Source: a virus
Taxonomy: Duplodnaviria; Heunggongvirae; Uroviricota; Caudoviricetes
DNA length: 64,000 nucleotides
IMG/VR virus record: IMGVR_UViG_3300018065_000012
Strand: one strand, 5' to 3'
Shown here one piece after another: positions 7,086 to 50,079 of this stretch. A program made the position numbers and the translations under genes. Each line of letters starts with the position of its first letter. Position 1 is the first letter of the stretch. Under the pieces are notes generated by a model that saw only the letters and a list, made by a program, of their open reading frames with translations, did no database searches and had not been told where the DNA came from.

Positions 7086-9602
7086 ATGTCTGACAATCCA
7101 ATAGTAGAACTTACTTTTGTAATCCCTGCGCCGGGACAACCGGAAATCATACGGGACAGTTTCACCCGTGTTGATTTTGGAAATGAAATTACAAAAGTGT
7201 ATCCTGATGATATTGACCCTTCTGGAGATTTGACAACTTTCACGCCAGAATATCCAAAGGCTTTTTACTTTTGGAATATGGGAGGTGCTTATGAAAGAGC
7301 AGGAATTGGAACAACTCCTGATTTTATTACAGCAGACAATTGGACTGACGTTGTAAGTTTGGCCCCTTCTGGGTTCATTACTTCAGTCAATTCAGTTATG
7401 CCCAAGTTGATGATCCCCTCTAAGCTTCTTGTCAAAAACGGATTCGGCAATCTTGGCGATGACAAAAAAGCAAAAGAACTTACCAATGGAACTTATAATC
7501 TTTTTGATTGGACCGTTGTTAAGCTTGCTGGTTCATCTACATTGACTGATGAAGACAAACGTTGTCTTACGGTAGCGCATGACGCAATTTCAATCAATCA
7601 AAAAGACGACACAGGAGATGGCGAAGGAGGAACATCCGCAGAATTACAGCTCGATGAGCCAACTGGAGCGCCAACGGGAGAGTGGGAGCCAACTGAACTC
7701 GTAGGAGAAGGTGCTTTTTGCTTACTCGTTAATGTTGTTCCAACAACTGCTGCAAAGCAGGCTGCTGATGACGAAACAAAACGCTGGAGTGTTGCGTTGT
7801 CAGCAAACGAGCTTGAAATCTTTCTTGATTCCAATGGAATGCGTATCAAAATTGGACAAGAGGAAGAACGCGCGCAGTTGGTTCAGGCGGCAGCAAAAGA
7901 AGCACCACCACAAGAAGCAGAATTTACTGAAGCAACAATGCTGTATATATTGATCGTCTACCCCGTATGGAATGGCGTCATCGTTGCAAATGGAATCCAA
8001 GACATTAGAAATGTCGTGAATGTTGCCAGTCAGTTTTGTGTGAAAGACCGCGAGCTAAGCATCAACGATCCAACATTGCAACAGCGTGGCGCAGGCGGCG
8101 TAACTGGAACGTTTGATCCAGAAAATCCGGCTGACGTCTTTATCAAAATGCCCGCTGGCGACAAGGCAAAGGTTTTGTTTGGAAACGAGATTAATGCCAT
8201 AACAAAAAATTGCCGTTTTGATATGGCTTATTTGCCAATCTATTTTTCTAACGCTGCTGTGATTGATAGCTTTTTCATTGGATCAAAAGATCAAGCTGCT
8301 GATCCAACAGCGGGCATTTTAGCTGTTACGTATGAATATGATGTCTATCCGATTTGGACCAACAATGATACAGACTATAATATTGCAGCCAGCGATGTTG
8401 AAACAGGAAAGTCGATTGATGTTGAAACGGAATGGAAATATGCTCGAATTGCTTTTGACAATGACAAACCAGCGAGGCGTGCCGGGGAGATGTTTGGTTA
8501 TATCTTGCGCACAAGGGAACAGCGCGGTGTAAATATCTTAACAGGAAATGGCTCTTTCAATTTGAGCGTTGGCGGCTCAACGCTTACAGGTTGGCCAAAT
8601 TATATCAAATCAGTTAATGTAACTGTCGGGTTAGACGGTTCCAGCGGTCAAATTGTCGTTGATAAATACGGTTTGACAAGTCAGACCGCAACTCCAGATC
8701 AAAGCATTGGAGCAATAACAATTGACGTTTCTAATGCGCCTGCGGGTTCTGTTGCAGGAAGAATTTTTGCCGGTTTGGGGATGGGCGTAACGGATACTCA
8801 AAGTTCAGATGGAGCAGACTTCACTATTCCATTGGTTGGCCTTGAAAAGAAAATGGAAGACATTGTATTGATCAACGTCCCGTTTTTTGATGGAAAGTTG
8901 TTCAGCGAGGTTTCACAATTCTTGACTCAATATAGTGGACTTATCCGCAACATGGCTTATGCTGCTGGGAGCCGAAAGCTTCCTTCTTCTGATGATATTG
9001 CGGCACCATTAGTTGATTTCAAAACAGGGACAACTGCGCTTGATGCAATGAATCAAGTGATGGAATTGACCGCGCATAATTATGTGATTCATAAGGACGG
9101 GCAAATATATTTCTATGCGCTTGCAACAGATGGTTTGCCGATTATTCTTGGACCAGACAGGTCAGGTGATTATCCAAACACAGAAGTGATCACGATTGAC
9201 CGAAGTCCTGATTTTCAAGATTTGCGCAATGAACGTCTGATTCTGGGATTGCAAAAAATTGAACCATCCAGCCGTCAAGTTGTTGAAGGCGCTGAGTTGC
9301 CTATTTTTCCATTGATTCTTTGGTCGCGTGAATATGGAACGGACCCATATATTCCTTGGTCTAAGCCAATTGTGTATGGTGTTCCCGGCTACGTGACAGA
9401 TGAAAAGCTTGAAGACATTGATACGCAAATTCAATCATTGACGAAGATTTACGAACTGACGGGACGCACTTCAATTCCCGGCGATTCTCGGATTATGCCC
9501 TATGATCGTTGGGGAAGTTACGTGATCGTTTCTGTATCGCACAATGTTGATTTGCAAGGAAAAACTTGGACAACTGATTTAGAATTCGCTTCAGGGAGAT
9601 AA
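7086..9602 (+). CDS. Tail tip or baseplate structural protein (838 aa)
   Basis: First gene after the tape measure, where distal tail, hub or tail-associated proteins normally sit. No catalytic motif recognised. Confidence 0.45.
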   Translation: MSDNPIVELTFVIPAPGQPEIIRDSFTRVDFGNEITKVYPDDIDPSGDLTTFTPEYPKAFYFWNMGGAYERAGIGTTPDFITADNWTDVVSLAPSGFITSVNSVMPKLMIPSKLLVKNGFGNLGDDKKAKELTNGTYNLFDWTVVKLAGSSTLTDEDKRCLTVAHDAISINQKDDTGDGEGGTSAELQLDEPTGAPTGEWEPTELVGEGAFCLLVNVVPTTAAKQAADDETKRWSVALSANELEIFLDSNGMRIKIGQEEERAQLVQAAAKEAPPQEAEFTEATMLYILIVYPVWNGVIVANGIQDIRNVVNVASQFCVKDRELSINDPTLQQRGAGGVTGTFDPENPADVFIKMPAGDKAKVLFGNEINAITKNCRFDMAYLPIYFSNAAVIDSFFIGSKDQAADPTAGILAVTYEYDVYPIWTNNDTDYNIAASDVETGKSIDVETEWKYARIAFDNDKPARRAGEMFGYILRTREQRGVNILTGNGSFNLSVGGSTLTGWPNYIKSVNVTVGLDGSSGQIVVDKYGLTSQTATPDQSIGAITIDVSNAPAGSVAGRIFAGLGMGVTDTQSSDGADFTIPLVGLEKKMEDIVLINVPFFDGKLFSEVSQFLTQYSGLIRNMAYAAGSRKLPSSDDIAAPLVDFKTGTTALDAMNQVMELTAHNYVIHKDGQIYFYALATDGLPIILGPDRSGDYPNTEVITIDRSPDFQDLRNERLILGLQKIEPSSRQVVEGAELPIFPLILWSREYGTDPYIPWSKPIVYGVPGYVTDEKLEDIDTQIQSLTKIYELTGRTSIPGDSRIMPYDRWGSYVIVSVSHNVDLQGKTWTTDLEFASGR

Positions 9603-9823: not shown

Positions 9824-10696
9824 ATGCCCTACAAACAAAAGACAGAATTCTTTGGAATCCCTTTTATCAGCAACGATGAAACGGTTTCTGAGGCTGAGGA
9901 AAAGAAAGCTGCCAATATAATAGAGAATCAACTTTTGGCGGCAACAAAAGGGGTGCGTTGCGCTGTTTTTGAAGATGGCCATTATCGTCTGGTAGATAAC
10001 GTTGACGGCACTTATACGGTAATGCTTGTAGGTACAGGAGAACGTATCGCATTTGAAGGAATTGTCAACGGTGGTTATTGCTATTCCAAAAACCCCGTGT
10101 TGTGGGAAAAGCTTATCAAGGGAAAAACCTATCATCTGTACGTCAAATTCACTTCTGATTTGTATGCGGACGAACACGCTTTCAAACCGATAACAAAAGA
10201 AAACTTCCCCTATGGCGATAATGTATTCAACGTCTTGTATCTTGCAAAAATTGATTTGTCTGTTGATAAACCGGCTGTTGACGCTCATCCTAATGGGAAG
10301 GTTTACGGCACAGACATTGCTCATCATGCGAATGATAAAACAAACCCTCATGGGCGTGATTTGGTCCAAGACAACTTGGATGTTCAAAAAAGCTTCAAGT
10401 TTCAAGGCGCTGAGTTGTATAATGGTAAAGATGGTATTTTGGATAAGGTTGAAAAATTGTCGACCTTTTCGACGGAAGACGGTTTGCCTTTTATAACATC
10501 TGGCGGGACAACTGGCGTCAACGTAGGCGTAACTGGAAAAATTGTGTCTGTTGATGTAGTTGAAGCAATTTGGGAAGGGCAACCGCCTTCGTTTGAATTG
10601 GGTGAAATTGCAATCAAGATTGAAGGGCAGAACGCGACTATTTACAACAGTGGGAAAGCTGGAATTCCCTTGCACGTATCCGTTTGGTACAGGTAG
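9824..10696 (+). CDS. Hypothetical virion or tail protein (290 aa)
   Basis: Protein-like composition within the tail module. An overlapping 319-aa minus-strand ORF has Cys/Phe-rich junk composition and was rejected. Confidence 0.4.
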   Translation: MPYKQKTEFFGIPFISNDETVSEAEEKKAANIIENQLLAATKGVRCAVFEDGHYRLVDNVDGTYTVMLVGTGERIAFEGIVNGGYCYSKNPVLWEKLIKGKTYHLYVKFTSDLYADEHAFKPITKENFPYGDNVFNVLYLAKIDLSVDKPAVDAHPNGKVYGTDIAHHANDKTNPHGRDLVQDNLDVQKSFKFQGAELYNGKDGILDKVEKLSTFSTEDGLPFITSGGTTGVNVGVTGKIVSVDVVEAIWEGQPPSFELGEIAIKIEGQNATIYNSGKAGIPLHVSVWYR

Positions 10697-10702
10697 AGAA
10701 AA

Positions 10703-11455
10703 ATGGGCGACTTTCCTCACGTATCAAGACAACCTGAATCAGTCATTTACCGCGACAGAGATATTGTTGCTTATATTCCTGACGTTTTGAAAGAAGACAT
10801 TGCTACCGCAATGGAAGTTTTCGACAAACAAAGTGGTACGAGTTTATACAAAGTAGCGGGTGGTAATAATCCCGAAGCGGGTCAACGAATCCTAATGTCA
10901 GGAAGAACGCTTACTAATGGGGTTCTTACGAATGGTTTGAGATGCGCTATTTATAAAACAGGAACTACCGCTACTGACGCAAAAGTTTTGCGGGAGATTA
11001 TCAGCCCAAGAGTTACTTACAATCGGGATGCTAATATCGTTGTGATGTGGTTCTGGACGAATTTTGAATCTGAGGTTACGGAATATGACGATACAGAAGG
11101 GACTCTGTATTGGATTGATGAAGACGATTTTGATTCCAGTAAGACTGTTTACAGAGCACTGTGTTGTACGATTGGCCGTATTGAAAAGCGTTACATCACA
11201 GGAGGGGCGATAGATGGTTCGGGCGCGGCTGATGGTTCTGATTTGTTAACTGTCTTTGAAAAGCCAACGATTTTACAATTGCGCCCAACATCTACGGGCG
11301 GTGGTGTTCCTATTATTGACTTTACTGCTGGTGGTGATTCTGGATTGCTTTACCGAGCAGTAGCAGACCAATCAGGAAATACTATCCAAGTCAAAACGGT
11401 TGATGCTGTTGGCGCGGTTACTGGCGATACAATCGTTTTGCAAGTGGTAACTTAA
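10703..11455 (+). CDS. Hypothetical tail protein (250 aa)
   Basis: Co-oriented and tightly packed within the tail module. Confidence 0.4.
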   Translation: MGDFPHVSRQPESVIYRDRDIVAYIPDVLKEDIATAMEVFDKQSGTSLYKVAGGNNPEAGQRILMSGRTLTNGVLTNGLRCAIYKTGTTATDAKVLREIISPRVTYNRDANIVVMWFWTNFESEVTEYDDTEGTLYWIDEDDFDSSKTVYRALCCTIGRIEKRYITGGAIDGSGAADGSDLLTVFEKPTILQLRPTSTGGGVPIIDFTAGGDSGLLYRAVADQSGNTIQVKTVDAVGAVTGDTIVLQVVT

Positions 11456-13413
11456 TGGCGCTCCCTATTGAAACTGACGCTTATATTCATGGTCTCGGTT
11501 TTGCAGCACCGGGACGGCTTTGGGGAGATATTGTTAGTGGTTCCAATGTAATTAACAATATCTCCCCTTTGAGTTGGATTCACACGGGCATGAAAGTATA
11601 TGTTAACTCTGGAACTACGCGAAATTCAGCTTTCACAAAAGGTTCTCCTATTGTAACGGTGGACACCACTGCGTATTTTATTACTGGAATGCTGATCATT
11701 ATTTCTGCTGTTCGGTTTAGATATACTGGTACAACAGTTATAGGTTCAAAGGAAGTTAATTTGGTTTCAAGTTTCAGAGCTATGACGAATATGGGTGTTG
11801 AAGGAACAGGGATACCGGCTGGCGCAGTTATGGAAACCTATGATGTGCCCGGTAAGAAATTTACAATGGATGTTGAAGCAACCGCAAGTGCTACTGGAGA
11901 CATTTGGTTGTCTACGACTCTTAATCAAGGAATTCCGGCAGGGACGACTATTCTAAGTATCGACAGCCCGACTCAAATAACATTAAGCGAAAACGCCGTA
12001 GAATCAAGTCCTAATTTTTCAATTGGTTATTCTGCTCCTTCTACTTCTTATATTGGAATTCCTGAAGGCACACTAACTACATTGGTGACTCTCCCGAACA
12101 CTGTTGAAATGAGTAAAAACGCAACAGAAACAGGAAGAGCCAACATTTCATTTGAAGGCGTTCCAAACATAGGCGCAATTGAAATGGTTGAACGCGTTAG
12201 TGACCTTCCGAAAATACATAGTGGAGATTTGGTTTACGAGATTCCAACTTTTGATGATGGTGGTTTTGGCTTTCGTGTTTTGCCGATGACGCTGAACGAT
12301 CAATATGGATGGAAGGCGAAAGTAAAACCGCCATATTTTGAAGTTGTTAGCGGAAGCGGTGGAGGCCAGATTGAAAATTTTCTACCAACTTTTGGCGGAA
12401 CTTATTGGCCTTATAACGTGTATACAAACGTCGTTCAGAATGGTGGCGGTGCTCTTCATATTGATTTTTATTCTGATATTGCAAGGACAAATCAATTAGG
12501 TCATACTGAAAGCTATCCTGCGTCGGGGATTGGTTCGCAAAATATAATAGCTGATTCTCAGGATATGGGAGGAAGCATTTCAGTAGATGCATTTGGCCCT
12601 GTTACTACTGATCTTGTTTTAAGGCCGCACAAAAAAGAAGCCGCAATTCGTGCGCCTAAACGATTTTCTGGAACTGCTAATTCTTCTTCATGGCACGCCG
12701 TTGGAAACGAAGCAAATTGTCAATATCAGTTTAATAGTTTAACTTGTTTTACTAAAATGTCAAAAGCTGCTATGATTCCGTTTTGTAATTGGACTACTCA
12801 AATACTTCCACAACTGTCTGCTGCGCCGTCTTTACTGAGAACCGCTCCCGGCGGCACGTTAACGATTAACGATGAAAATTGGGATTTCAAGTTAGCATAT
12901 GTGAATGACTTTTGCTTTAATGGGACAGGGGGGCTTTTGTGCTATCGATGGGTTTCGGAACAAGGGTCGCTTATGCAGGTTGGCGTCATAATGGGTAGTA
13001 TGCCATCAACTCGTTACGATGTTAAGGCGCAAATTGACGTTCAACCCATTGCAAGTTTTGGTGGTGGCCAATATGCTGTTGCTGGTGATGTGACTGTAGC
13101 AGATTTTACCGTTAAAGTAATGGAAGGATACAGCACAACAGGATATTGGTCGGGACCAGTAGCGGGCACTTTTTCGGCAGTATCTGGATTTACTGGAGAG
13201 ATGAGCGTGGCAAGTACAACGGCGGGTCTTACTTTTGAACTTGATACGACTCCTTATGGTTCTGATCCTCGCTTTCTTGGGCTACCAGCAACGAATTGCT
13301 GGTATTCTGCGCCCGGCACTTGGTGTAATGATTTTTTGCAATGTTGGGGAGGTTATCGTTGGGAGTGGGGGCAAACTATTGACGTTGATTTTGCTTACAA
13401 GTATACTGAGTGA
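11455..13413 (+). CDS. Tail fibre or receptor-binding-like protein (652 aa)
   Basis: Gly/Thr/Ser-rich, beta-rich composition typical of fibre or tip proteins. ATGA overlap with the upstream gene. Confidence 0.45.
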   Translation: MALPIETDAYIHGLGFAAPGRLWGDIVSGSNVINNISPLSWIHTGMKVYVNSGTTRNSAFTKGSPIVTVDTTAYFITGMLIIISAVRFRYTGTTVIGSKEVNLVSSFRAMTNMGVEGTGIPAGAVMETYDVPGKKFTMDVEATASATGDIWLSTTLNQGIPAGTTILSIDSPTQITLSENAVESSPNFSIGYSAPSTSYIGIPEGTLTTLVTLPNTVEMSKNATETGRANISFEGVPNIGAIEMVERVSDLPKIHSGDLVYEIPTFDDGGFGFRVLPMTLNDQYGWKAKVKPPYFEVVSGSGGGQIENFLPTFGGTYWPYNVYTNVVQNGGGALHIDFYSDIARTNQLGHTESYPASGIGSQNIIADSQDMGGSISVDAFGPVTTDLVLRPHKKEAAIRAPKRFSGTANSSSWHAVGNEANCQYQFNSLTCFTKMSKAAMIPFCNWTTQILPQLSAAPSLLRTAPGGTLTINDENWDFKLAYVNDFCFNGTGGLLCYRWVSEQGSLMQVGVIMGSMPSTRYDVKAQIDVQPIASFGGGQYAVAGDVTVADFTVKVMEGYSTTGYWSGPVAGTFSAVSGFTGEMSVASTTAGLTFELDTTPYGSDPRFLGLPATNCWYSAPGTWCNDFLQCWGGYRWEWGQTIDVDFAYKYTE

Positions 13414-14318
13414 AAATGCAGCACATAACGTTTGAATGTACTAATTCTCGTCCTGAAGACGCTATCGCTTTGACTGCGGTTATGCGTGATGTTAATTATA
13501 GGTGCAAAGATTATTTTCGTTTCTCGGTTCTTTCGGAAGGCAAGAATTTGTTTCCAGAGATATTTGAAGGCAACCCAAATATTGCAGAGAAAGAATCAGA
13601 GACAACTATTATTCCTTTTGACGGTATTAAAGCAACCGATGACCGGCATCATTTTGACCAATTATCTAAACTTTTCTTTAAGTATACAATGGTGTCTTTC
13701 AGTATAGGCTTTTTTCATGGTGAGCTGTTTCTTACAGATGAAGAAAAAAGTAAGAGTCCGGTTGAAGGAAAATACTACGTCTTTGCTGTTGACAAAAATC
13801 ATCAATGGAATCGTTGGAAAGACCTTCAAAACAAGAATGAAACAAGTCGTGTTGTTTTTATAGGGTTTGACAAAGTGAATATGGAAAACGTTTTGAATAA
13901 ATCGGGCGAACTAACGCTTCGAGAAATTATTCAGCACGCCTATCATGCCGACGCGATAGTGACTACTTGTACATTTGTTCAAAGTGTTGCTGGTGCTTTT
14001 CAGAAACCTTGCGTCTATTTTGCGAAAGAGAATGAATCGCTTACATGGCGTCAATTCGCTTGCTGTCGAATGATTGATGGTTCGTCTGATATTGAACTGG
14101 TTGATAATTGTTTTCATTCTTTTGACAAACCGCCATCAGAAGGGCAACGAGAAACTCCAAAACCGTGCAAACACGCAAAAATGTTGGATGAACTTTGGCA
14201 CGAGACGCGACCTTGCAAGGGGTGCAAAGTGAAGTGCGAAAACCCGAAATGTCCAACTGACACGTGGTATGCTTCTGGATGTAATCCAAAAAAATGTCGA
14301 TTCTTTGAGGAAAACTAA
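13410..14318 (+). CDS. Hypothetical tail-module protein with Cys-rich C-terminus (302 aa)
   Basis: C-terminus reads CKHAKMLDELWHETRPCKGCKVKCENPKCPTDTWYASGCNPKKC. A central segment weakly resembles a GT-B Rossmann fold, unconfirmed. Confidence 0.4.
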   Translation: MKMQHITFECTNSRPEDAIALTAVMRDVNYRCKDYFRFSVLSEGKNLFPEIFEGNPNIAEKESETTIIPFDGIKATDDRHHFDQLSKLFFKYTMVSFSIGFFHGELFLTDEEKSKSPVEGKYYVFAVDKNHQWNRWKDLQNKNETSRVVFIGFDKVNMENVLNKSGELTLREIIQHAYHADAIVTTCTFVQSVAGAFQKPCVYFAKENESLTWRQFACCRMIDGSSDIELVDNCFHSFDKPPSEGQRETPKPCKHAKMLDELWHETRPCKGCKVKCENPKCPTDTWYASGCNPKKCRFFEEN

Positions 14319-14319
14319 A

Positions 14320-14832
14320 ATGTCTGATCAAATATATGGCGACGGGCGTTACAGTGGTTCTTATCAATTGCGCAACGCTGCGCCTGATACAGAGTACGGA
14401 GTCCCCGAACAATTACTTTGTGACATGTATTGGCAAGACGAGATTGAATGCCTCATTGATCGTGTATGGGAGAAAAGCGCGATGGCTTACAAAAATCTTG
14501 ATTTATACAAAGGCAACAACAAACAGTACGTTTGCTATGTGAAAGATCGCACCTTGACCGCAATTGACATTAGCAATGCGGTCTGTACTTTGACGGTGAA
14601 GCGTGAGAAATCCGATGTATCCCCGACGTTTCAGAAAAGCACTAACGTTCCGGGCGAAGGGGAAATTGGAGCAGCGAATAAGGGCGAGTTCTATTTTTAC
14701 ATTGTTCCCGCTGACACGACGTCGCTGGAAACACGGCAGTATGTGTTTGATATCAAAATTGCAATGCCAACTGCAACTCTTTACACCGTTGCCGAAGGTG
14801 TGATCTACATGAGAGAGCCTGTTAATCCGTGA
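14320..14832 (+). CDS. Hypothetical tail-module protein (170 aa)
   Basis: ATG at 14320 (MSDQIYGDGRY...) overlaps the stop of the upstream gene. Last gene before the intergenic promoter region. Confidence 0.4.
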   Translation: MSDQIYGDGRYSGSYQLRNAAPDTEYGVPEQLLCDMYWQDEIECLIDRVWEKSAMAYKNLDLYKGNNKQYVCYVKDRTLTAIDISNAVCTLTVKREKSDVSPTFQKSTNVPGEGEIGAANKGEFYFYIVPADTTSLETRQYVFDIKIAMPTATLYTVAEGVIYMREPVNP

Positions 14833-21646: not shown

Positions 21647-22327
21647 ATGTCTGAAGTAATCACTTCTGAACGTAACTTCAAACAGGTTTTGAAAGAGGAC
21701 GAGATTTGTGATAGCCCATATACTCGTGAAGGGCTTGCCGTGCTCATTGCGGAAGGCGAAGCAAACGAGTTTGAGAAACAGCTTTTCCACGACTCCATTG
21801 TCCGCGCCATTTACACCATCGTTTTTCGCTACGGCGAATGCGATACGCGCGTGCCGGTGGAAGAGCTTGCGAACGACGCAGAATTGGCGTTGTGGAAGAA
21901 CCTGCCTTTCTTCAAAAAGGAAAAAGGCGTCAAGTTTATCACGTGGATGTGGCGTGTGGTTCGGAATCATGTGTTCAATCACCGCAAGCGGGTGACCCGT
22001 TATAGAACGAATCAGAAAATTACGACCAACATGTCTTCAGAGGAAAGCGAGTTTATCACGACTCGCGCTTGCGACGAAAGTCTTTCAAACGCAGACAAGT
22101 CGTGGCAGATGAAAAACGCCATGCAGTTGCTTTTTGATGCTTACCCGGAAAAGCAGAAAATGCTGCTCGCTCTTTTTGGCGATCCGTTTTCTGAAAACTT
22201 TTCAGGAAAGAAGCCGAACTTTGTCCGCGTGGCGAAAAAGTTGAAAACGAAAATGAACGATGTTCGGCGCTTTTGCAATCACGTTGCGTATCCGTTCTTG
22301 AAAAAGCACTTGGACGATCTGTTATAG
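21647..22327 (+). CDS. Phage-encoded RNA polymerase sigma factor (sigma-70 family, regions 2 and 4)
   Basis: KGVKFITWMWRVVRNHVFNHRKR matches sigma-70 region 2.3/2.4 (cf. YKFSTYATWWIRQAITR). The C-terminal region is HTH-like (region 4). Confidence 0.75.
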   Translation: MSEVITSERNFKQVLKEDEICDSPYTREGLAVLIAEGEANEFEKQLFHDSIVRAIYTIVFRYGECDTRVPVEELANDAELALWKNLPFFKKEKGVKFITWMWRVVRNHVFNHRKRVTRYRTNQKITTNMSSEESEFITTRACDESLSNADKSWQMKNAMQLLFDAYPEKQKMLLALFGDPFSENFSGKKPNFVRVAKKLKTKMNDVRRFCNHVAYPFLKKHLDDLL

Positions 22328-22386
22328 AGGGGCAAGCCGTGGCGAGTAAAAAATTTGGCAAGGAGATGAAGCATCTTGAGGACAAT

Positions 22387-22788
22387 ATGAAAATGGGTGC
22401 ATGCTATCGCCATTTTAGAAGCGATTCGGCAAACTGCAAAAACTGTCTCGCAAAATTGCTTTGCAGAAGCGCGACAGCGACGGCGGTTGGCGTTATGGAA
22501 GAGCAGAGTTTTGAAGAGATTTTGATTGAAGAATTGAAAGAGAAATTTCAATTCGCAAGGTCAAAACAAGGAGAAAGCTGCAACTGTTACTGGTTTGAGT
22601 TTGGCCCAATCCCCATTCAAATTTGGATCGCGAAGTCAGGTAATATGAAAATAAGGATTGGTTACGAAAACAACAACAAGGTTTATGAAACGAAGAAAGA
22701 CAGCGTTGAAGAAATAGATAGTTTCGTCAAACAATTGATGGATGATTCCAAAGAGTTTGGGACGGCTCATGCAAACAAGGGAATATGA
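22387..22788 (+). CDS. Hypothetical protein (133 aa). The start is ambiguous (22366, 22387 or 22393).
   Basis: The ORF overlaps the 3' end of the sigma gene in another frame. A Cys cluster CYRHFRSDSANCKNC is present. Confidence 0.35.
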   Translation: MKMGACYRHFRSDSANCKNCLAKLLCRSATATAVGVMEEQSFEEILIEELKEKFQFARSKQGESCNCYWFEFGPIPIQIWIAKSGNMKIRIGYENNNKVYETKKDSVEEIDSFVKQLMDDSKEFGTAHANKGI

Positions 22789-23686
22789 GTATTTCGAGTT
22801 TCCTTTTAACAACTTCAACAAAGCGCAAGCCGCTGCCATTCCGCACATCCCAACCGAAACAAACCTCGTGATTTCATTCCCTACCGCTACTGGCAAAACT
22901 GCGCTGGCCGAAGCAGCTTTCGGTTTTCATTTCAAAACATCCCCAAATTCAAAATGTGTCTATGTGTCGCCGTATCGTTCCTTGAGCATGCAGCAATACA
23001 ATGCATGGAAAGAGAACGCGCAGTTTTCCAAACATGGAATCGTTTTAAGCATAGGTGATCGTTTTGCGTGTAAAGAGGATTTCGATTCAAACCGTTTGAT
23101 TATCTTGACTACAGAATCATTTGACTCGAAGACGAGGAATCAAAGCCAACATAAATGGTTAAAAGAAATTACTTGTATAGTTTTTGACGAAGCGCATTTA
23201 TTGGGGACAAAAGGGCGTGGCGACAACGTAGAAGTTTCATTGGTGCGTTTTACAAAGCTGAACCCAAAAGCAAGAATTATTTTGCTGTCCGCGACAATGG
23301 AAAATGCAGGAGAATTATCGTCGTGGTTGAAAAGTTTGAACAAAAAGACGACGTTGAAAATCGTAAGCACGTGGCGTCCATCAAAAATCGTAACACGCTT
23401 TTACACGTTCGATGATGAAAAGACTTGGGAAAAGAAAATTGAGTTAGCAAAGCAGCTTGCAACAACTCCACGTGGTGAAAAAATAGTCGTTTTTGTTCAT
23501 AGTAAAAAGCTTGGGAAAGAAATTACGAAGGCAGTTAGAAAAAAGGGTTTCATTTGCGAATTTCATAATGCAAATTTATCGCACTCAAGGCGAAAAGCAA
23601 TTGAAGAAGCATTCGACAATGTCCGTTCGGGGTTGGACATCCTTGTGAGTACATCAACATTGTCAAGTGGAGTGAATTTAGGATGA
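22769..23686 (+). CDS. Ski2/Hel308-like SF2 DNA helicase, N-terminal fragment (motifs Q to V); the split gene's first part
   Basis: Q-motif FNKAQAAAI, motif I PTATGKT, II VFDEAHLL (DEAH), III LLSATMEN, V STSTLSSGVNLG. It terminates at a TGA overlapping the ATG of the following gene. An alternative start is at 22742. Confidence 0.8.
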   Translation: MQTREYEYFEFPFNNFNKAQAAAIPHIPTETNLVISFPTATGKTALAEAAFGFHFKTSPNSKCVYVSPYRSLSMQQYNAWKENAQFSKHGIVLSIGDRFACKEDFDSNRLIILTTESFDSKTRNQSQHKWLKEITCIVFDEAHLLGTKGRGDNVEVSLVRFTKLNPKARIILLSATMENAGELSSWLKSLNKKTTLKIVSTWRPSKIVTRFYTFDDEKTWEKKIELAKQLATTPRGEKIVVFVHSKKLGKEITKAVRKKGFICEFHNANLSHSRRKAIEEAFDNVRSGLDILVSTSTLSSGVNLG

Positions 23687-24264
23687 ACAAGGCGGAACGT
23701 CTCACAGAATTGCAACAGAAGTGCTATGCTTGTAAGAAGTGTGCCATTGGCGGGCAAGACGTTGATGGTCATTTGAGCAACGTGTGGTCTAATATGAGCA
23801 TGAAAGCTCAAATCATGGTAATAGGGCAGAATCCCGGTTACGTTGAAGTAGAACGTGGAAAACCTTTTGTCGGGCCGTCGGGTGAATTTTTTGATAAGGC
23901 AATTGAAGAAGTTTTAGGAATTGATAGAACGCATTTTTACATTACGAATACGTGCCACTGCTATACGGCAAAAAACCGCAAGCCAAGCAATGTCGAAATT
24001 GAAAATTGTTGCGAATTTTTAGACGCTGAAATCGAAGCCGTAAACCCAAAAATCATCGTGACCTTGGGAGCGCCATCGTTGGAGCAGGTGACTGGGCGAA
24101 AAGGAATAATGAAACTTCATGGTCAAAAGATAATTTCATTACGATACAAAAAGAACGTTTTGCCCCTATTGCATCCAAGCCCAAGAAATATGAACAAGCC
24201 TGAATTGAAAGTGAAATTTTATCAAGACTTAGAAGTCCTCAAAGAATATCTCAATGGCAGATAG
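23683..24264 (+). CDS. Uracil-DNA glycosylase superfamily protein (family 4-like, Fe-S Cys motifs), inserted between the helicase halves
   Basis: N-terminal CYACKKC Cys pair, motif A-like IGQNPG...GKPFVGPSG (cf. GEGPG...G.PFVG.aG), motif B HPSPRN (cf. HPSPLN), and further Cys at TNTCHCY and ENCCEF. Confidence 0.7.
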   Translation: MNKAERLTELQQKCYACKKCAIGGQDVDGHLSNVWSNMSMKAQIMVIGQNPGYVEVERGKPFVGPSGEFFDKAIEEVLGIDRTHFYITNTCHCYTAKNRKPSNVEIENCCEFLDAEIEAVNPKIIVTLGAPSLEQVTGRKGIMKLHGQKIISLRYKKNVLPLLHPSPRNMNKPELKVKFYQDLEVLKEYLNGR

Positions 24265-25252
24265 AATTGTTATTGTAGACATCTGGCGTGGCCGAGAGCG
24301 CGTTTCAACGGCAGAAATTTTGCAGATGGCAGGCCGGTGTGCCCGGCAACCAAACCAAATAGGTCATGTTGATATCATTATTAACGAAGATGACGTACAA
24401 ACGTTGAAAGATGAAATGCAGGACGCAGATCATCTTCGAGTTGATTCTGTTCTGTACGATGCAGAAACGCTTGCTTTTCATCTCGTTTCTGAAATTAGCA
24501 GCGGGGAGATAAGGACGCTTTCAGAGGCAAAAAGATGGTACGGAAAAAGTTTCGCGGCGTTTACGGGGTTTTCTTGTGAAGTGGAGCAAGCAGTTGACTT
24601 GCTTTCTGAAGAATGGGAGACAATAACGCGCCGGGGCGATTTTCTTTTTCCTACAGATTTGGCGCATATCGCGAGTCGTTTTTATTTTCATCCAGCAGAC
24701 ATTTACTATTGGCGGGAAAATTTTTTTGAGCTTTTTGAAAGTGAACTTCAAAAAAATGATCCAGCAATTGCTTGGGCGCTATCTAATGTCGCGAGAGAGC
24801 GAAAAAGGGGCAATCTGTACGGTTGTTGGGAGTTGATAGAAGAATACAAAGACCAAGTGTCTTCACTTGGCTTAGACTGTTCAAAAACGATTGCTGGTGG
24901 CTTGGTTTGGTGGAGTCTTTTAGGAGGGCCGTCAACAAGCAAACTGTCCAGTCAAAAGAAAGAAGCAAAAGAGGATTTCGGGCGCATTTATGGTGCGCTC
25001 TTAAAGATCAACGAATGCTCGGGATGGGACAAACGGAAGTTTTTTGAGGATTTGAGAGTACGGATAGCATACAAAATCCCTGATGAACTTGTAAACTTGT
25101 GTAAACTTGAAGGAATTGGAAAAAGTGTTGCGTTTGAGTTGTATAATTTAGGAGTGGAAAACGCGGAAGGAATTCGTGAAAACTGGGACGCAATTGAAAC
25201 GTTTGGAACTGACGAACTGATAGAAAAATTGAGACACTTGTCTTATGGCTAA
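24254..25252 (+). CDS. Ski2/Hel308-like helicase, C-terminal fragment (motif VI, winged helix/ratchet, HhH domain 5)
   Basis: It begins MADRIVIVD...ILQMAGRCAR (motif VI QMAGRAGR) and has a C-terminal HhH GIGKSVAFEL. It is in the same reading frame as the N-terminal fragment, and the ATG lies 8 nt inside the 3' end of the UDG ORF. Confidence 0.8.
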   Translation: MADRIVIVDIWRGRERVSTAEILQMAGRCARQPNQIGHVDIIINEDDVQTLKDEMQDADHLRVDSVLYDAETLAFHLVSEISSGEIRTLSEAKRWYGKSFAAFTGFSCEVEQAVDLLSEEWETITRRGDFLFPTDLAHIASRFYFHPADIYYWRENFFELFESELQKNDPAIAWALSNVARERKRGNLYGCWELIEEYKDQVSSLGLDCSKTIAGGLVWWSLLGGPSTSKLSSQKKEAKEDFGRIYGALLKINECSGWDKRKFFEDLRVRIAYKIPDELVNLCKLEGIGKSVAFELYNLGVENAEGIRENWDAIETFGTDELIEKLRHLSYG

Positions 25253-25715
25253 AGATTTTTGGTTTACAGAGCGGGCAGTCAAAGCTTTCACACAAGCGGC
25301 TGATAATGGAGAGCTATCTCCTCGTCACGTTCGTGATGTAATCCGTTACAAGACTCTCAATATTGATGAGACATTGTTCGAGCCTTACTTGAAGTCAAGC
25401 AATGATTGGGTACGCAGGTGTACTGCGCAAGTGCTTGGAGAAATTGGCAGTAATCTAAAGCCATTAATTGAAGCCGCAAAGATAGAGCAGAACAAAAGCA
25501 CGCTGATAGAAATATTAAAACAATTGATGAAAAGCCGCGAAGGACTTGAAGAGTTAGTTTATTTGCTTGAGTCGAAAGATACGGCAATCAAAGAGCAGGC
25601 AATTGGTATGTTCAGACGTGCTGGTCGTTCAGATTGTTTAATGACGTTGCTTTTTGATGACGATGATTCGATGGTAAGCCGTATCAAGCGGTATATGGAC
25701 GAAGCAAATAAATGA
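25245..25715 (+). CDS. HEAT/PBS-lyase-like repeat protein (156 aa)
   Basis: Repeated pattern as in DWVRRCTAQVLGEIGS...ELVYLLESKDTAIKEQAIGMFRRAG. Confidence 0.5.
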   Translation: MAKDFWFTERAVKAFTQAADNGELSPRHVRDVIRYKTLNIDETLFEPYLKSSNDWVRRCTAQVLGEIGSNLKPLIEAAKIEQNKSTLIEILKQLMKSREGLEELVYLLESKDTAIKEQAIGMFRRAGRSDCLMTLLFDDDDSMVSRIKRYMDEANK

Positions 25716-26392
25716 TTTCACGGCACGGTATTTCTTCGACACGAGAAGCAAGGTACAAGCGATTTCACTTGTGGCTCGTAGAAATGTCAACGCTGTATGG
25801 GGTTGTTGATGATCCAGAGTTGAGAGATGTTATACATATTTTGCTTGAAAAACTTGAGAACAGAATAAGCGCAAATAAAGAACAAGAAGAAGGAAAGCGC
25901 AAGAAAAAAGTACGCAGTTTCTTTGCAATCTTCAAACAAAAATATCTTCAATTAACAGATTTGGAATATTTTGGAGGATTCAAAGCAACAGAAGCAAAAA
26001 TCATTGAAGGTTTGATAGGAAAACTGGAGCAAAATGGCGCAACGATGGAAGAGTATCTCAAGTGGTTGTTTGACGAGTTTTATATCAACAAAGAACAACT
26101 GTCTCCAAACATTCCTTTGTCCGTAAGTAATAGTGTCTTGCAAGAGTTCATGTATAAAAACGCGGCAAAGCTCAAAAATAGGAAACAGGCAAAAGAAGCC
26201 ATAGAAGAGGAAGAATTGCTTTTGAGAAGGGCAGGCGTTCTCATACGGTCAAGCAAGGACGAAGGCTTTAAGCAAGAAGTGGTTACGCTATTGAAGCATT
26301 ATCAAAAATCCGAATGCAATTTGCCAGAGTTTCGGTTAGAGCTTAAAAAATTATCAGAAAAGTTTGAAAAACTTAAAAGCCAAAGTGTATAA
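25712..26392 (+). CDS. Hypothetical protein (226 aa)
   Basis: ATGA overlap with the upstream gene. Charged, helical composition. Confidence 0.4.
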   Translation: MISRHGISSTREARYKRFHLWLVEMSTLYGVVDDPELRDVIHILLEKLENRISANKEQEEGKRKKKVRSFFAIFKQKYLQLTDLEYFGGFKATEAKIIEGLIGKLEQNGATMEEYLKWLFDEFYINKEQLSPNIPLSVSNSVLQEFMYKNAAKLKNRKQAKEAIEEEELLLRRAGVLIRSSKDEGFKQEVVTLLKHYQKSECNLPEFRLELKKLSEKFEKLKSQSV

Positions 26393-32247: not shown

Positions 32248-33663
32248 ATGGAAAAGAATCTTTGGGAACGTAAAGGTATCATCGGCGGTCATGAAATCAA
32301 GCCTGATGACAATATTGATTCTGCCAATAAGGAGAATATGAAAATGGCAAAGGACAAGAAAGACTTAAAGCTTGATCCGAATTTTGGAGACGAATCGCAG
32401 GAGCAAAATATGCCAAAGAGCGAAGAAAAACCAACGGAGGAAATTGTAGAAGCGCCAGCAGCAGGACTGTTTGTTCCAAATATTCCAATGCCTGTAACGG
32501 CAGAGGAAAGCAAGGAAATAATTAAGGACCAGTGCGAAGTAGCGTTCAAGATTGCTTTTGTTGGTGCAGGTCAAGCTGGCGCGAGGATGGTTGAAGCGTT
32601 CTACAAACTTGGTTATCGCCGCGTTTGTGCTGTAAACACAACCAGTCAAGACCTTGTTGCAATTGATATCCCAGATGAAAACAAGTTTGTTATGGACATT
32701 GGGGAAGGCGGCGCAGGCAAGGAACCAGAGAAGGGCGAACAGGCAGTCAAAAAGCATTATGAGAACGTTTATGATCTGATGCGTCGGAGTTTTGGAAAAG
32801 ACTTCGAACGGATTATTGTTTGTATCGGCGCTGGGGGAGGAACGGGTAGTGGATCAATTGAAACATTGATCGATATTGCTCACGACATTGCAGAGTCTTT
32901 CAAACTGGAAGGCGGACCGGAACAGGTACCGGCTGTTGGCGCGTTGGTTTCAATGCCGATGTCCAATGAGAGTCAGAAAGTAAACGCTAACGCTTCAAAA
33001 GTTCTTGAGGTTCTTTTTGGACGTGTTGGAAAAGACAAAGGTGGAAGATTGTCTCAAAGGACGATGTCGCCATTGATAGTTGTCGACAATGACAGAATCA
33101 GCAAACTATATCCGGGGTTGCCAGTTACGCAGTTTTGGAGCGTCGCAAATCAAAGCATCAGTGGGCTATTCCACTTGTTTAACAACATTGCGGCTGCGAA
33201 AGGCGAAAATACAATTGCGACGTTTGACCGTGCAGATTTCGCAGATGTCCTCAAGAGTGGCGTAATTACATTTGGAGCAACACCATTGATCAAATGGCAG
33301 AACGAAACGGATATCAGTTTTGCAATCAGAGAGAATTTGAAGCATAACATTCTTGTTGCTGATATTGATTTAGGCTCTGCGGCTGTTGCAGCAGGCGTTG
33401 TAATTGGCAAGGACAAAATTTTGAATTCTGTCCCGCAAGATTATTTGAACCATGGATTTGAAATGCTTGGACGGATCATGAAAACAAATAGCGTTGTCCA
33501 TCGTGGAATCTATAAGTTGGGAGAAGCGATGGATAACGTAAAAGAACAGCCGGATTTAGTCGTTTACACAGCATTTGGAGAACTCGGAAAGCCAGACGCA
33601 AGAATGGAAGAAATTCAACGTCTTGGCGCAGTCGATCAACAAAACAGAATGCGTTTGAGATGA
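32248..33663 (+). CDS. Tubulin/FtsZ-family GTPase (PhuZ/TubZ-like)
   Basis: Glycine-rich loop FVGAGQAGARM and the tubulin signature IGAGGGTGSGS (GGGTGSG). An alternative start with a strong SD is at 32344 (aaggagaatATGaaaATG). Confidence 0.75.
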   Translation: MEKNLWERKGIIGGHEIKPDDNIDSANKENMKMAKDKKDLKLDPNFGDESQEQNMPKSEEKPTEEIVEAPAAGLFVPNIPMPVTAEESKEIIKDQCEVAFKIAFVGAGQAGARMVEAFYKLGYRRVCAVNTTSQDLVAIDIPDENKFVMDIGEGGAGKEPEKGEQAVKKHYENVYDLMRRSFGKDFERIIVCIGAGGGTGSGSIETLIDIAHDIAESFKLEGGPEQVPAVGALVSMPMSNESQKVNANASKVLEVLFGRVGKDKGGRLSQRTMSPLIVVDNDRISKLYPGLPVTQFWSVANQSISGLFHLFNNIAAAKGENTIATFDRADFADVLKSGVITFGATPLIKWQNETDISFAIRENLKHNILVADIDLGSAAVAAGVVIGKDKILNSVPQDYLNHGFEMLGRIMKTNSVVHRGIYKLGEAMDNVKEQPDLVVYTAFGELGKPDARMEEIQRLGAVDQQNRMRLR

Positions 33664-45176: not shown

Positions 45177-45212
45177 ATATTGTGAAACAAGGCTGATTTG
45201 ACGGAGAGAAAA

Positions 45213-49551: not shown

Positions 49552-50079
49552 ATGAAAAAAGGAAGATGTAGTGCTAAGGTGCGGTGTAAGGGAATGAAAT
49601 TTCATCGTACGCGTTCTTGCAAAAACAAAGGCTCAGTTCAGGTTGCATCAATGTGGTTTTGCAGACACCACATTCCCAAAGTCCTTTTGTCCAAAGAAGC
49701 GGAGAAGTTGAAGAAATGCATTCAGGAGCATGAAGACGCAGCAAAGCATTACCGTGATAAATTGGGCCTCATCAATGGATTGAGAGACATAAAACAAAGA
49801 CGACGGGAACCTTGTGTCATTTCGTCAGACTTCTGTGACGCGCCAGCCAACTTGGAGTTTGCGTCTGCAAGATACGATTGTTACACGTGCGGATTGCCGG
49901 TTTGTGCAAAATGTTCTTTCGTCCTTCCAGACGAATACGCAAAGCGAAAAACACGTGTGTGTTTGGATTGCGCTGAAGAAGACCCAGCAAGATGGGGTTT
50001 TGAAGATGCCGATGGCGTAGTTGATTGGTGGAACACAAAGAACGGCGCATTTGATCACAGGCTCAAGGAGAAAGCATAA
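49552..50079 (+). CDS. Cys-rich zinc-finger protein (175 aa)
   Basis: CYTCGLPVCAKCS and CLDCAEE. FYVE/B-box-like spacing. Function unknown. Confidence 0.45.
   Translation: MKKGRCSAKVRCKGMKFHRTRSCKNKGSVQVASMWFCRHHIPKVLLSKEAEKLKKCIQEHEDAAKHYRDKLGLINGLRDIKQRRREPCVISSDFCDAPANLEFASARYDCYTCGLPVCAKCSFVLPDEYAKRKTRVCLDCAEEDPARWGFEDADGVVDWWNTKNGAFDHRLKEKA

What the first reader, a model, noticed from the sequence alone, without database searches (positions are those of the whole stretch)
22769..25252. Hel308/Ski2-like helicase split between motifs V and VI by a UDG family 4-like gene
Two ORFs encode the N-terminal part (Q motif and motifs I to V, ending STSTLSSGVNLG*) and the C-terminal part (MADRIVIVD...QMAGRCAR, motif VI onward, HhH) of a single Hel308-type helicase. 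They are separated by exactly 570 nt. This segment encodes, in another frame, a complete uracil-DNA glycosylase family 4-like protein (Fe-S Cys motifs, GQNPG, HPSPRN). The two helicase pieces lie in the same reading frame, so the insertion is a multiple of 3. The junctions are tightly coupled: ATGA at the 5' side, and the C-fragment ATG sits 8 nt inside the UDG 3' end. The insertion bisects the second RecA-like domain, so a functional helicase would need either two-piece assembly, RNA splicing (a group I intron carrying an unusual ORF), or translational recoding. None of these is documented for this gene combination.
Basis: partly seen in the sequence, partly recalled or inferred. Interest (0 to 1): 0.85.

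Follow-up and report, generated by a model that had tools for sequence, protein, structure and literature searches.

The report
Two-piece phage helicase with lodged UDG gene
A jumbo phage encodes its Hel308-type DNA helicase as two separate genes with a uracil-DNA glycosylase gene between them; at least 50 related environmental phages share this old gene fission, so it is a new example of a known "fractured gene" layout, not an intron or recoding event.

Summary
ORFs 22769-23686 and 24254-25252 are the exact N- and C-terminal parts of one Hel308/Ski2-like helicase, cut in the loop just after motif V. ORF 23683-24264 is a complete family-4-like UDG in another frame.

The arrangement is not peculiar to this window. 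I found 51 distinct metagenomic phage loci split at the identical residue. 44 of them carry the UDG gene between the halves and 7 do not.

The gap ranges from 555 to 2241 nt. It also collects Vsr-like homing endonucleases, TnpB, thymidylate-synthase-like genes and small ORFs. The halves are in frame in only 18 of 44 loci, which is about chance. All three stop codons end the N gene. No intron RNA or intein residues are present. All three genes are under strong purifying selection (dN/dS 0.04-0.13).

Best explanation: an ancient intein-less gene fission of the "fractured gene" type (Dassa et al. 2009). The two translationally coupled polypeptides rebuild the second RecA-like domain non-covalently. 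UDG is a separate, dispensable resident gene.

Splicing and recoding are rejected. Assembly and activity are inferred, not shown. This is a new variant of a known kind and of moderate interest.

The parts
22769..23686 (+). hel308-N gene. It encodes the Q motif, motifs I-V, the RecA1 domain and the first half of RecA2 (305 aa from ATG 22769; the ORF is open from 22742). It ends GVNLG-TGA.
   Evidence: Pfam DEAD 8.6e-30 and Helicase_C positions 2-81 of 110. NCBIfam best hits are Hel308-type helicases. The end point is identical in 51 distinct loci. dN/dS is 0.04-0.07 in relatives.
23683..24264 (+). Family-4-like uracil-DNA glycosylase gene (193 aa), in a different frame from the helicase. Its ATG overlaps the hel308-N stop (ATGA). 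Its last 8 coding nt plus stop overlap the hel308-C start.
   Evidence: Pfam UDG 1.4e-33. Full-length match to the S. tokodaii family-4 UDG 4zbx, E 3e-25. CxxCxxC, GQ[NS]PG, PFVGxSG, N..xC, NC and H[PT]SP are invariant in 11 orthologues. dN/dS is 0.07. TIGR00758 scores 118.3, under its 125.3 cutoff.
24254..25252 (+). hel308-C gene (332 aa). It encodes the next RecA2 strand (RIVIV), a small hairpin, motif VI (QMAGRCAR), the rest of RecA2, the winged-helix and ratchet domains, and the C-terminal HhH domain.
   Evidence: It aligns to positions 363-504 and 627-694 of Hel308 models and to 2p6r when joined to N. Orthologues all start M[AS][DE], aligned to PARRVI of uninterrupted relatives. About 57 of the best 150 representative hits are stand-alone proteins of about 330 aa aligned from residue 1. 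dN/dS is 0.06-0.13.
23672..23690 (+). 5' junction, AATTTAGGATGAACAAGG. The hel308-N stop TGA overlaps the UDG ATG, and a GGAG lies 10 nt upstream, consistent with translational coupling.
   Evidence: Read directly from the sequence. The same overlap type occurs in L017, L029, L037, L047 and L051.
24240..24266 (+). 3' junction. The hel308-C ATG (24254) sits inside the UDG 3' end (stop 24262-24264). The resident gene supplies the start context of the downstream half.
   Evidence: Read directly from the sequence. The same overlap of 8-16 nt occurs in L011, L013 and L019. Where another ORF precedes hel308-C, that ORF's stop abuts or overlaps the start instead (L004, L015, L017, L018).

Best explanation
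The Hel308-like helicase of this jumbo-phage lineage underwent an ancient gene fission of the intein-less "fractured gene" type. The cut lies in the surface loop immediately after motif V.

The locus is three independent, co-oriented, translationally coupled cistrons in one operon: hel308-N, udg and hel308-C.

Proposed mechanism:
- The N polypeptide carries RecA1 plus the first half of RecA2.
- The C polypeptide carries one central strand, the motif VI arginine-finger helix and the remaining RecA2 elements, then the winged-helix, ratchet and HhH domains.
- The two associate non-covalently, by fragment complementation of the RecA2 sheet, to give an active two-subunit helicase.

No RNA splicing, protein splicing or recoding is involved.

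The UDG is a separate enzyme whose gene lodges in the inter-cistronic gap. That gap behaves as an insertion hot spot, visited by Vsr-like homing endonucleases, TnpB, thymidylate-synthase-like genes and small ORFs. The UDG is usually retained but is dispensable for the split helicase.

Shown here: the anatomy, conservation of the split point, variability of the gap, purifying selection, and absence of intron, intein and recoding signals.

Inferred: physical assembly and activity of the two halves, operon transcription, and the historical cause of the fission.
For: 1. The cut is exact. Joined N+C aligns without loss or gain to Hel308 2p6r across GVNLG|MADRIVIV = GVNLP-ARRVIV. Helicase_C becomes complete, positions 2-108 of 110.
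2. The AlphaFold2 model of the joined protein has pLDDT 88 and pTM 0.83. It puts the break in a coil (residues 296-308) between strands 291-295 and 309-313. The model matches Hel308/Hjm over its full length at TM about 0.7.
3. The identical split point occurs in 51 distinct loci spanning 27-61% identity. At least about 57 clusters at 50% identity are stand-alone C fragments. More distant relatives of about 670 aa are uninterrupted.
4. The gap is not a fixed element. It is 555-2241 nt long, and the halves are in frame in 18 of 44 loci. TGA, TAA and TAG all terminate the N gene. Extra genes sit in the gap, including TnpB on the opposite strand.
5. Seven loci keep the split with no UDG. In L006 the sequence reads ...KGD-TAG-GCA-ATG with an SD-like AAAGGGGA. 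L090 lacks UDG while its sister L019 has it (bootstrap 100).
6. Both halves are kept by selection. dN/dS is 0.04-0.07 for N and 0.06-0.13 for C. Motif VI residues Q, G, R and R are invariant in C fragments, which have no P-loop of their own. Bona fide inteins sit in both halves in relatives.
7. No promoter-like or terminator-like site stands out between the three genes.
8. There is precedent. Phage genes fractured by free-standing genes can give functional two-piece enzymes, and the invading element supplies the stop and an overlapping downstream start (PMC2677866).
Against: - No experiment or complex prediction here shows that the two polypeptides bind each other or unwind DNA. The AlphaFold model was of an artificial fusion, not of two chains.
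- One locus (L077) has an N fragment with no C fragment within 6 kb downstream. Co-location is therefore not absolute, or that copy is decaying.
- 44 of 51 loci keep UDG exactly between the halves. That is more persistent than expected for a neutral passenger and could mean a functional link.
- Deep nodes of my NJ tree are weak (bootstrap 45-68). The order of events, fission first or UDG insertion first, is unresolved.
Confidence: 0.8

Rival explanations
1. Functional three-part module. The UDG sits between the halves because the three proteins work together, for example as a uracil-excision and unwinding complex, and coupled translation sets their stoichiometry or co-translational assembly.
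For: UDG lies between the halves in 44 of 51 distinct loci over deep divergence. In the minimal form both junctions overlap. UDG is under purifying selection with intact Fe-S cysteines and motifs.
Against: Seven loci keep the split helicase under purifying selection without UDG, including L090, whose close sister L019 has it. Other genes are freely inserted on either side of UDG, which breaks the coupling. None of the 35 closest UDG homologues is fused to a helicase part; all are stand-alone proteins of 184-285 aa. Uninterrupted relatives have no UDG nearby.
Confidence: 0.12
2. The 570-nt insert is a self-splicing intron (group I or II) carrying UDG as its ORF. RNA splicing restores one helicase mRNA.
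For: The halves are in the same frame and the exon junction would be seamless. Related phages are rich in mobile elements.
Against: No intron family matched in Rfam even at E <= 10. The whole 570 nt is occupied by the UDG ORF, leaving no room for a ribozyme core. In relatives the gap is 555-2241 nt, holds opposite-strand genes, and is out of frame in 26 of 44. Each C fragment has its own start codon, and the N genes end in TGA, TAA or TAG. L006 has a 6-nt gap only.
Confidence: 0.01
3. Protein-level or translational joining. A split intein trans-splices the halves, or ribosomes bypass or read through the insert.
For: Relatives carry true inteins in this helicase. One insertion site is only 3 residues from the split point in uninterrupted homologues (P0111, P0142, P0163...HN|CNLPARR).
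Against: The N fragment ends 0-3 residues after GVNL and the C fragment starts at the residue homologous to P of PARRVI. There are therefore no Int-N or Int-C segments. More than 20 stops of all kinds lie in the helicase frame. The gap is variable and mostly out of frame.
Confidence: 0.01
4. Decay or neofunctionalisation. The helicase was inactivated by the insertion, and the fragments are pseudogene remnants or now act separately.
For: L077 shows an N fragment without a nearby C fragment.
Against: dN/dS is 0.04-0.13 for both halves. All helicase motifs are retained in both halves across 51 loci. Motif VI is conserved in a protein that lacks a nucleotide-binding loop, which only makes sense in a complex with the N fragment (inference). 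Inteins persist in both halves.
Confidence: 0.06

Closest known systems
Intein-less "fractured genes" of phages: Aeromonas phage Aeh1 nrdA split by mobE, Aeromonas phage 25 gp43 DNA polymerase split by a GIY-YIG gene, and an SbcD-like gene split by a Vsr-like gene (Dassa et al. 2009, PMC2677866)
   Same: - Two adjacent co-oriented ORFs are consecutive parts of one DNA-metabolism enzyme, with a free-standing gene between them.
- The upstream stop and downstream start lie at the insert's ends, and the downstream start overlaps the insert's 3' end.
- The setting is a phage genome.
- Vsr-like (DUF559 plus zinc-ribbon) putative homing endonucleases occupy the same gap in relatives L083, L004, L039, L045, L061 and L068.
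   Different: - The host gene, a Hel308-like SF2 helicase, is not among the described cases.
- The constant resident is a UDG, not an endonuclease, and the window has no endonuclease at all.
- The fission is old and clade-wide (51 distinct loci) rather than sporadic.
- The gap has become a multi-gene insertion site.
Split-intein fractured genes (gp41 helicase, DnaE, NrdA/J and others in ocean metagenomes; Dassa et al. 2009)
   Same: A gene in two pieces around a free-standing gene. Helicases and replication proteins of environmental phages are the hosts.
   Different: No split-intein halves flank the break here, so the pieces cannot be ligated. They must act as a non-covalent heterodimer.
Archaeal Hel308/Hjm and the helicase domain of Pol theta/HELQ (PDB 2p6r, 2zj8, 5a9j)
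   Same: The same five-domain architecture and motifs I-VI. Sequence match E 3e-47 and fold TM about 0.7.
   Different: Those enzymes are single polypeptides. This one is about 24% identical to them, is shorter around the hairpin after motif V, and is encoded in two genes. It scores far below the NCBIfam Hel308 equivalog cutoffs.
Family 4 (Fe-S) uracil-DNA glycosylases, and the UDG-like N-terminal domain of SPO1-type phage DNA polymerases
   Same: Full-length similarity to S. tokodaii, T. maritima and T. thermophilus family-4 UDGs. Conserved cysteines and motif B are present. The best GenBank phage matches are the UDG-like domains of SPO1-like PolA.
   Different: Motif A is GQNPG rather than GE(A/G)PG. 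The score is just under the TIGR00758 cutoff. The protein is stand-alone, in a phage whose polymerase is DnaE-type.

Membership tests
Hel308/Ski2-like SF2 helicase | Q motif and helicase motifs I-VI in two RecA-like domains | tested here: met
   DEAD 3.2e-29 and Helicase_C positions 2-108 of 110 on the joined protein. GKT, DEAH, SAT, motif V STSTLSSGVN and motif VI QMAGRCAR are conserved. The motifs are met only by the two ORFs together.
Hel308/Ski2-like SF2 helicase | Winged-helix, ratchet and C-terminal HhH domains after RecA2 | tested here: met
   phmmer domain 3 aligns residues 571-617 to Hel308 618-664. The Foldseek full-length match to 9b15, 2p6r and 2zj8 has TM 0.65-0.73.
Hel308/Ski2-like SF2 helicase | Curated equivalog score (NCBIfam NF040935 helicase_Hel308, cutoff 1200 bits) | tested here: not met
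   98 bits for N and 23 bits for C. It is a distant phage relative, not an orthologue of archaeal Hel308.
Hel308/Ski2-like SF2 helicase | 3'-5' DNA unwinding activity | not testable with these tools
   This needs biochemistry on co-expressed fragments.
Family 4 uracil-DNA glycosylase | UDG superfamily fold and sequence | tested here: met
   Pfam PF03167 1.4e-33. 4zbx E 3e-25 over residues 7-188.
Family 4 uracil-DNA glycosylase | Four cysteines for the 4Fe-4S cluster | tested here: met
   CxxCxxC near the N terminus, the N..xC cysteine and the NC cysteine are invariant in 11 orthologues. The assignment of these residues to the cluster is from my recollection of family-4 structures.
Family 4 uracil-DNA glycosylase | Motif A GE(A/G)PG and the curated subfamily score (TIGR00758 cutoff 125.3) | tested here: not met
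   Motif A is GQNPG here and GQ[NS]PG in the whole clade. The score is 118.3 against a cutoff of 125.3. Hence "family-4-like"; activity is untested.
Fractured gene (free-standing gene inserted in a coding gene; Dassa et al. 2009) | Adjacent co-oriented ORFs that are consecutive parts of one protein, with nothing lost at the break | tested here: met
Fractured gene (free-standing gene inserted in a coding gene; Dassa et al. 2009) | A free-standing homing endonuclease gene between the parts | tested here: not met
   The window holds only UDG. Vsr-like DUF559 genes occupy the gap in relatives, including the closest one, L083.
Fractured gene (free-standing gene inserted in a coding gene; Dassa et al. 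2009) | Split-intein halves flanking the break (present in most but not all described cases) | tested here: not met
   Only 0-3 extra residues occur at the break in all 51 loci.
Group I/II intron with ORF | Conserved ribozyme core detectable by covariance model, plus non-coding flanks | tested here: not met
   No intron family matched at E <= 10 in 22000-26000. The insert is fully coding.
Intein | In-frame insertion with Hint-domain blocks and a nucleophile at +1 | tested here: not met
   The insert is in another frame and is a UDG. True inteins occur elsewhere in relatives' copies.

The most novel reading that the evidence does not exclude
The placement is adaptive rather than accidental. UDG and the two helicase halves would be made from coupled cistrons so that they assemble into one three-subunit repair machine. 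In that machine a Hel308-type translocase delivers or exposes uracil-containing DNA to a variant (GQNPG) Fe-S glycosylase. The split would exist because it allows UDG to be built into the complex.
Probability: 0.1. Interest if true: 0.75.

Novelty: new variant of a known kind. Interest (0 to 1): 0.45.

Why it matters
- **A natural split helicase.** The enzyme is cut inside the RecA2 core, between motif V and motif VI, and the cut has been kept by selection in dozens of phage lineages. It is a ready-made test of how far the helicase motor tolerates fragment complementation. The break point may be useful for engineering split helicases.
- **Extension of the fractured-gene concept.** It adds a new host gene and shows that a fission can be long-lived. 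The gap then serves as a landing pad for cargo genes (UDG, thymidylate-synthase-like genes, methyltransferases, homing endonucleases, TnpB).
- **Annotation.** The roughly 330-aa C fragments have no Pfam hit on their own. In these jumbo phages they can now be named helicase subunits.
- **What it is not.** It is not a new mechanism of gene expression.

Tried and rejected
- **Readthrough or recoding.** Translation of the helicase frame shows more than 20 stops of all three kinds.
- **Intron.** An Rfam scan of 22000-26000 at E <= 10 gave only three chance hits, none an intron.
- **Close DNA relatives among GenBank phages.** None found. By protein there was only one uninterrupted 29% match, in a 595-kb uncultured phage.
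- **First IMG/VR scan with the single C fragment.** It found nothing. An alignment of C fragments was needed.
- **UDG fused to a helicase part (Rosetta-stone evidence).** The 428-505-aa hits turned out to be truncated or intein-bearing uninterrupted helicases. All close UDG homologues are stand-alone.
- **Split-intein remnants.** None at the break.
- **Internal promoters or terminators between the three genes.** Nothing above shuffled expectation.
- **Order of events from the tree.** Basal UDG-less forms L099 and L088 suggest fission first. Bootstrap support of 45-68 is too weak to decide.
- **A C fragment in L077, L053 and L055.** A profile search found none.
- **Literature on a Hel308-UDG split.** Searches found nothing. 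The crAss-like phage paper mentions UDG and helicases only as separate genes.
Full report
**1. What is in the window**

All genes in the region lie on the + strand. ORF 22742..23686 probably starts at ATG 22769, where homologues begin. It encodes 305-314 aa ending STSTLSSGVNLG. ORF 23683..24264 encodes 193 aa. ORF 24254..25252 encodes 332 aa starting MADRIVIVD...QMAGRCAR.

The first and third ORFs share a reading frame. From the last sense codon of the first to the ATG of the third is 570 nt. The 5' junction is ATGA. The third ORF's ATG lies 8 nt inside the coding end of the middle ORF.

Read in the helicase frame, the 570 nt contain more than 20 stops of all three kinds. G+C content is uniform: 0.41, 0.41 and 0.43, against 0.43 for the window.

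**2. Identity of the parts**

- The N ORF has Pfam DEAD (8.6e-30) and Helicase_C positions 2-81 of 110.
- The C ORF has no Pfam hit on its own.
- Joined, the two give Helicase_C positions 2-108 of 110. They align to A. fulgidus Hel308 (2p6r, E 3e-47) straight through the junction: GVNLG|MADRIVIV against GVNLP-ARRVIV. The C-terminal HhH region also aligns.
- NCBIfam's best hits for both halves are Hel308-type helicases, far below the equivalog cutoffs.
- An AlphaFold2 model of the joined sequence, built with 22 uninterrupted homologues, is confident (pLDDT 88, pTM 0.83). It places the break in a coil (residues 296-308) between strand 291-295 and strand 309-313 of the second RecA-like domain.
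- The model matches Hel308/Hjm over its full length at TM about 0.7.
- The C fragment therefore supplies a central strand, a small hairpin, the motif VI helix and a further strand to RecA2. It also supplies the winged-helix, ratchet and HhH domains.

The middle ORF is a UDG-superfamily protein (PF03167, 1.4e-33). It aligns over its full length with family-4 UDGs of S. tokodaii, T. maritima and T. thermophilus. It scores just under the family-4 cutoff (118.3 against 125.3), and its motif A is GQNPG rather than GE(A/G)PG.

**3. Relatives**

A search with the joined protein found about 30 uninterrupted helicases of about 670 aa at 30-34% identity. It also found three closer relatives (43-52% identity) that all stop at exactly the same residue as the window's N fragment, and these carry inteins.

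Their contigs show the same neighbourhood as the window: SNF2, DnaB, Toprim primase, a sigma-70-like gene, a small ORF, hel308-N..., hel308-C, then a HEAT-repeat gene. Between the halves they hold the following:

| Locus | Content between hel308-N and hel308-C |
|---|---|
| L001 | TnpB on the minus strand, then UDG |
| L004 | a DUF559 endonuclease, UDG and two small ORFs |
| L006 | nothing: ...KGD TAG GCA ATG GCT GAT, with an SD-like AAAGGGGA |

The L006 C fragment also has a LAGLIDADG intein inside motif VI.

Scans of IMG/VR and of JGI metagenomes, using alignments of C and N fragments, added about 90 loci. After removing duplicates, 51 distinct loci contain both the N end and the C start. 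All are split at the same point: GVN[LIMV], then 0-3 residues, then a stop, followed by M[AS][DE]... aligned to PARRVI of the uninterrupted forms.

- 44 of the 51 have the UDG between the halves and 7 do not.
- A further 18 or so show N followed by UDG before the contig ends.
- A phmmer pass over 1.84 billion cluster representatives gave 484 hits. About 57 of the best 150 are stand-alone proteins of about 330 aa aligned from residue 1.

One caveat applies. One of the two IMG/VR search patterns included the start Met, which biases that survey toward split forms. It does not bias toward the presence of UDG.

**4. Tests of the proposed mechanisms**

*In-frame continuity.* Among the 44 UDG-bearing loci the halves are in frame in 18 and out of frame in 26, against an expectation of one third. 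The gap ranges from 555 to 2241 nt. The N genes end in TGA (26), TAA (17) or TAG (8). Recoding, bypassing and readthrough are therefore excluded.

*Intron.* Rfam finds no intron family even at E <= 10. The 570 nt are filled by the UDG ORF. In relatives the gap content varies and includes an opposite-strand gene.

*Intein or split intein.* The insert is in another frame, and no extra residues flank the break.

*Decay.* NG86 dN/dS on close pairs:

| Gene | dN/dS |
|---|---|
| hel308-N | 0.04-0.07 |
| UDG | 0.07 |
| hel308-C | 0.06-0.13 |

This includes the UDG-less pairs. Synonymous-site divergence is high in these pairs (dS 0.62-2.1), approaching saturation in the L015/L018 comparison, so the ratios are approximate. 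Motif VI residues Q, G, R and R are invariant in C fragments.

*Expression signals.* No promoter-like or terminator-like site stands out among the three genes. The C start is nearly always abutted or overlapped by the stop of whatever ORF precedes it.

**5. The gap as an insertion site**

Besides UDG, the gap holds the following:

- Vsr-like DUF559 plus zinc-ribbon proteins between N and UDG in L083 (the window's closest relative), L004, L039, L045, L061 and L068; a similar zinc-ribbon ORF follows the N fragment in L055, where no UDG was detected before the contig ended
- thymidylate-synthase-like genes in L024, L087, L053 and L077
- TnpB in L001
- a SLOG-domain gene in L019
- recurrent unknown ORFs of about 90 and about 140 aa between UDG and C

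In some uninterrupted relatives a true intein sits three residues upstream of the split point (...HN|CNLPARR). This stretch of the gene is therefore a repeated target of mobile elements.

**6. History**

In a neighbour-joining tree of N+C with 100 bootstraps, the split forms plus one uninterrupted form (L097) make a clade with support 68. Two basal split forms (L099, L088) lack UDG. The UDG-bearing crown has support 65.

UDG-less loci are also nested among UDG-bearing ones. L090 is sister to L019 (bootstrap 100), and L043/L054 group with L028 (65). UDG has thus been lost more than once. Whether the fission preceded the arrival of UDG cannot be settled with this support.

**7. Comparison with what is known**

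Dassa et al. 2009 (PMC2677866) described "fractured genes" in phage-rich metagenomes. These are halves of DNA-metabolism genes separated by a free-standing GIY-YIG or Vsr-like endonuclease gene, usually with split inteins.

That paper also lists intein-less cases: Aeh1 nrdA/mobE, Aeromonas phage 25 gp43, and an SbcD-like gene. According to that paper, for Aeh1 nrdA the two parts were shown to form a functional ribonucleotide reductase. In their model the invading element supplies the upstream stop and an overlapping downstream start, which is exactly the junction anatomy seen here.

The present case differs in four ways:

- The host gene is a Hel308-like helicase.
- The constant resident is a UDG, not an endonuclease.
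- The fission is ancient and clade-wide.
- The gap has become a multi-gene landing site.

I found no paper describing it.

**8. Verdict**

Splicing and recoding are refuted.

It is a new variant of a known kind and of moderate interest. The open question is whether the persistence of UDG in 44 of 51 loci reflects a functional partnership (my estimate is about 0.1) or genetic hitch-hiking. Under hitch-hiking, its 3' end provides the translation start context of hel308-C, so only precise deletions are tolerated.

**Context**

The window belongs to a jumbo phage. The identical UDG occurs on a 338-kb contig. The phage has a bacterial-type replication set: DnaE, GyrA/B, LigA, RecA, FEN, DnaB, primase, SNF2, a tubulin homologue and a sigma factor.

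Noticed in passing
L001 6001-8214; L004 6001-8001; L006 6001-8442 and 8446-10344; proteins P0014, P0111, P0142, P0163: The helicase is an intein hot spot in relatives. There are LAGLIDADG inteins in the P-loop (GK|T; P0005, P0029), after DE of motif II (P0013, P0014), and inside motif VI of the C fragment (L006). In uninterrupted forms one sits 3 residues before the split point (...HN|CNLPARR). The window copy is intein-free. SNF2 and RecA of relatives also carry inteins.
   Followed up: partly
L083 6942-7814; L004 8054-8881; L039 1478-2389; L045 6962-7762; L061 6952-7905; L068 6949-7743: A family of Vsr-like (DUF559) proteins with N-terminal zinc ribbons sits immediately after hel308-N and before UDG. 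Its distribution is sporadic: it is present in the window's closest relative L083 and absent from the window. This is typical of free-standing homing endonucleases. The window's N/UDG junction may be an empty homing site.
   Followed up: partly
L024 6930-7781; L087 6934-7956; L053 1341-2360; L077 7726-8652: Divergent thymidylate-synthase-like genes (PF00303, E about 1e-10) lie in the same gap. In L077 they are flanked by two DNA methyltransferase-like ORFs. They could be dUMP/dCMP-modifying enzymes, which hints at base modification in some of these phages.
   Followed up: no
L077 (Ga0208904_1001037), downstream of 6846: This locus has an N fragment with no UDG and no C fragment within about 6 kb downstream, even by profile search. 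The C half is either displaced or lost.
   Followed up: partly
L006 8428-8450: The halves are separated only by TAG plus one codon, in frame, with an SD-like AAAGGGGA inside the N 3' end. This is a split with no resident gene. I did not check whether TAG is ever read through in that phage.
   Followed up: no
window 32248-33663, 39227-42751, 45198-49543, 50079-52058, 21647-22327: The window has jumbo-phage hallmarks: a tubulin/FtsZ-like gene, a DnaE-type Pol III alpha (1174 aa), GyrB and GyrA, an NAD-dependent ligase with BRCT, and a sigma-70 region-2 protein. The identical UDG is found on a 338-kb contig.
   Followed up: partly
window 635-7075 and 7086-9602: Two very large ORFs (2146 and 838 aa) have no Pfam match at E <= 0.001. 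Several following ORFs (9824-14832) also have no match.
   Followed up: no
window 22273-22788 and 25245-25715: The split helicase is flanked by conserved genes. Upstream is a Cys-rich small protein, also present before hel308-N in L004, L011, L016 and L017. Downstream is a HEAT-repeat protein whose start overlaps the hel308-C stop. Both are syntenic in all long relatives, and their functions are unknown.
   Followed up: no
L015 6368-6646, L018 6723-7001, L023 7498-7785, L045 8548-8826; L004 9451-9879, L017 6573-7001, L015 6613-7008: Two recurrent families of unknown small proteins, about 90 aa and about 140 aa (the latter Trp/Arg-rich), are lodged between UDG and hel308-C in many loci. Each ends exactly at the hel308-C start.
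   Followed up: no
L001 8262-9380 (-): A TnpB (OrfB_IS605/Cas12f-like) gene is inserted on the opposite strand between hel308-N and UDG. The same insertion is seen in two other assemblies (L002, L003).
   Followed up: no
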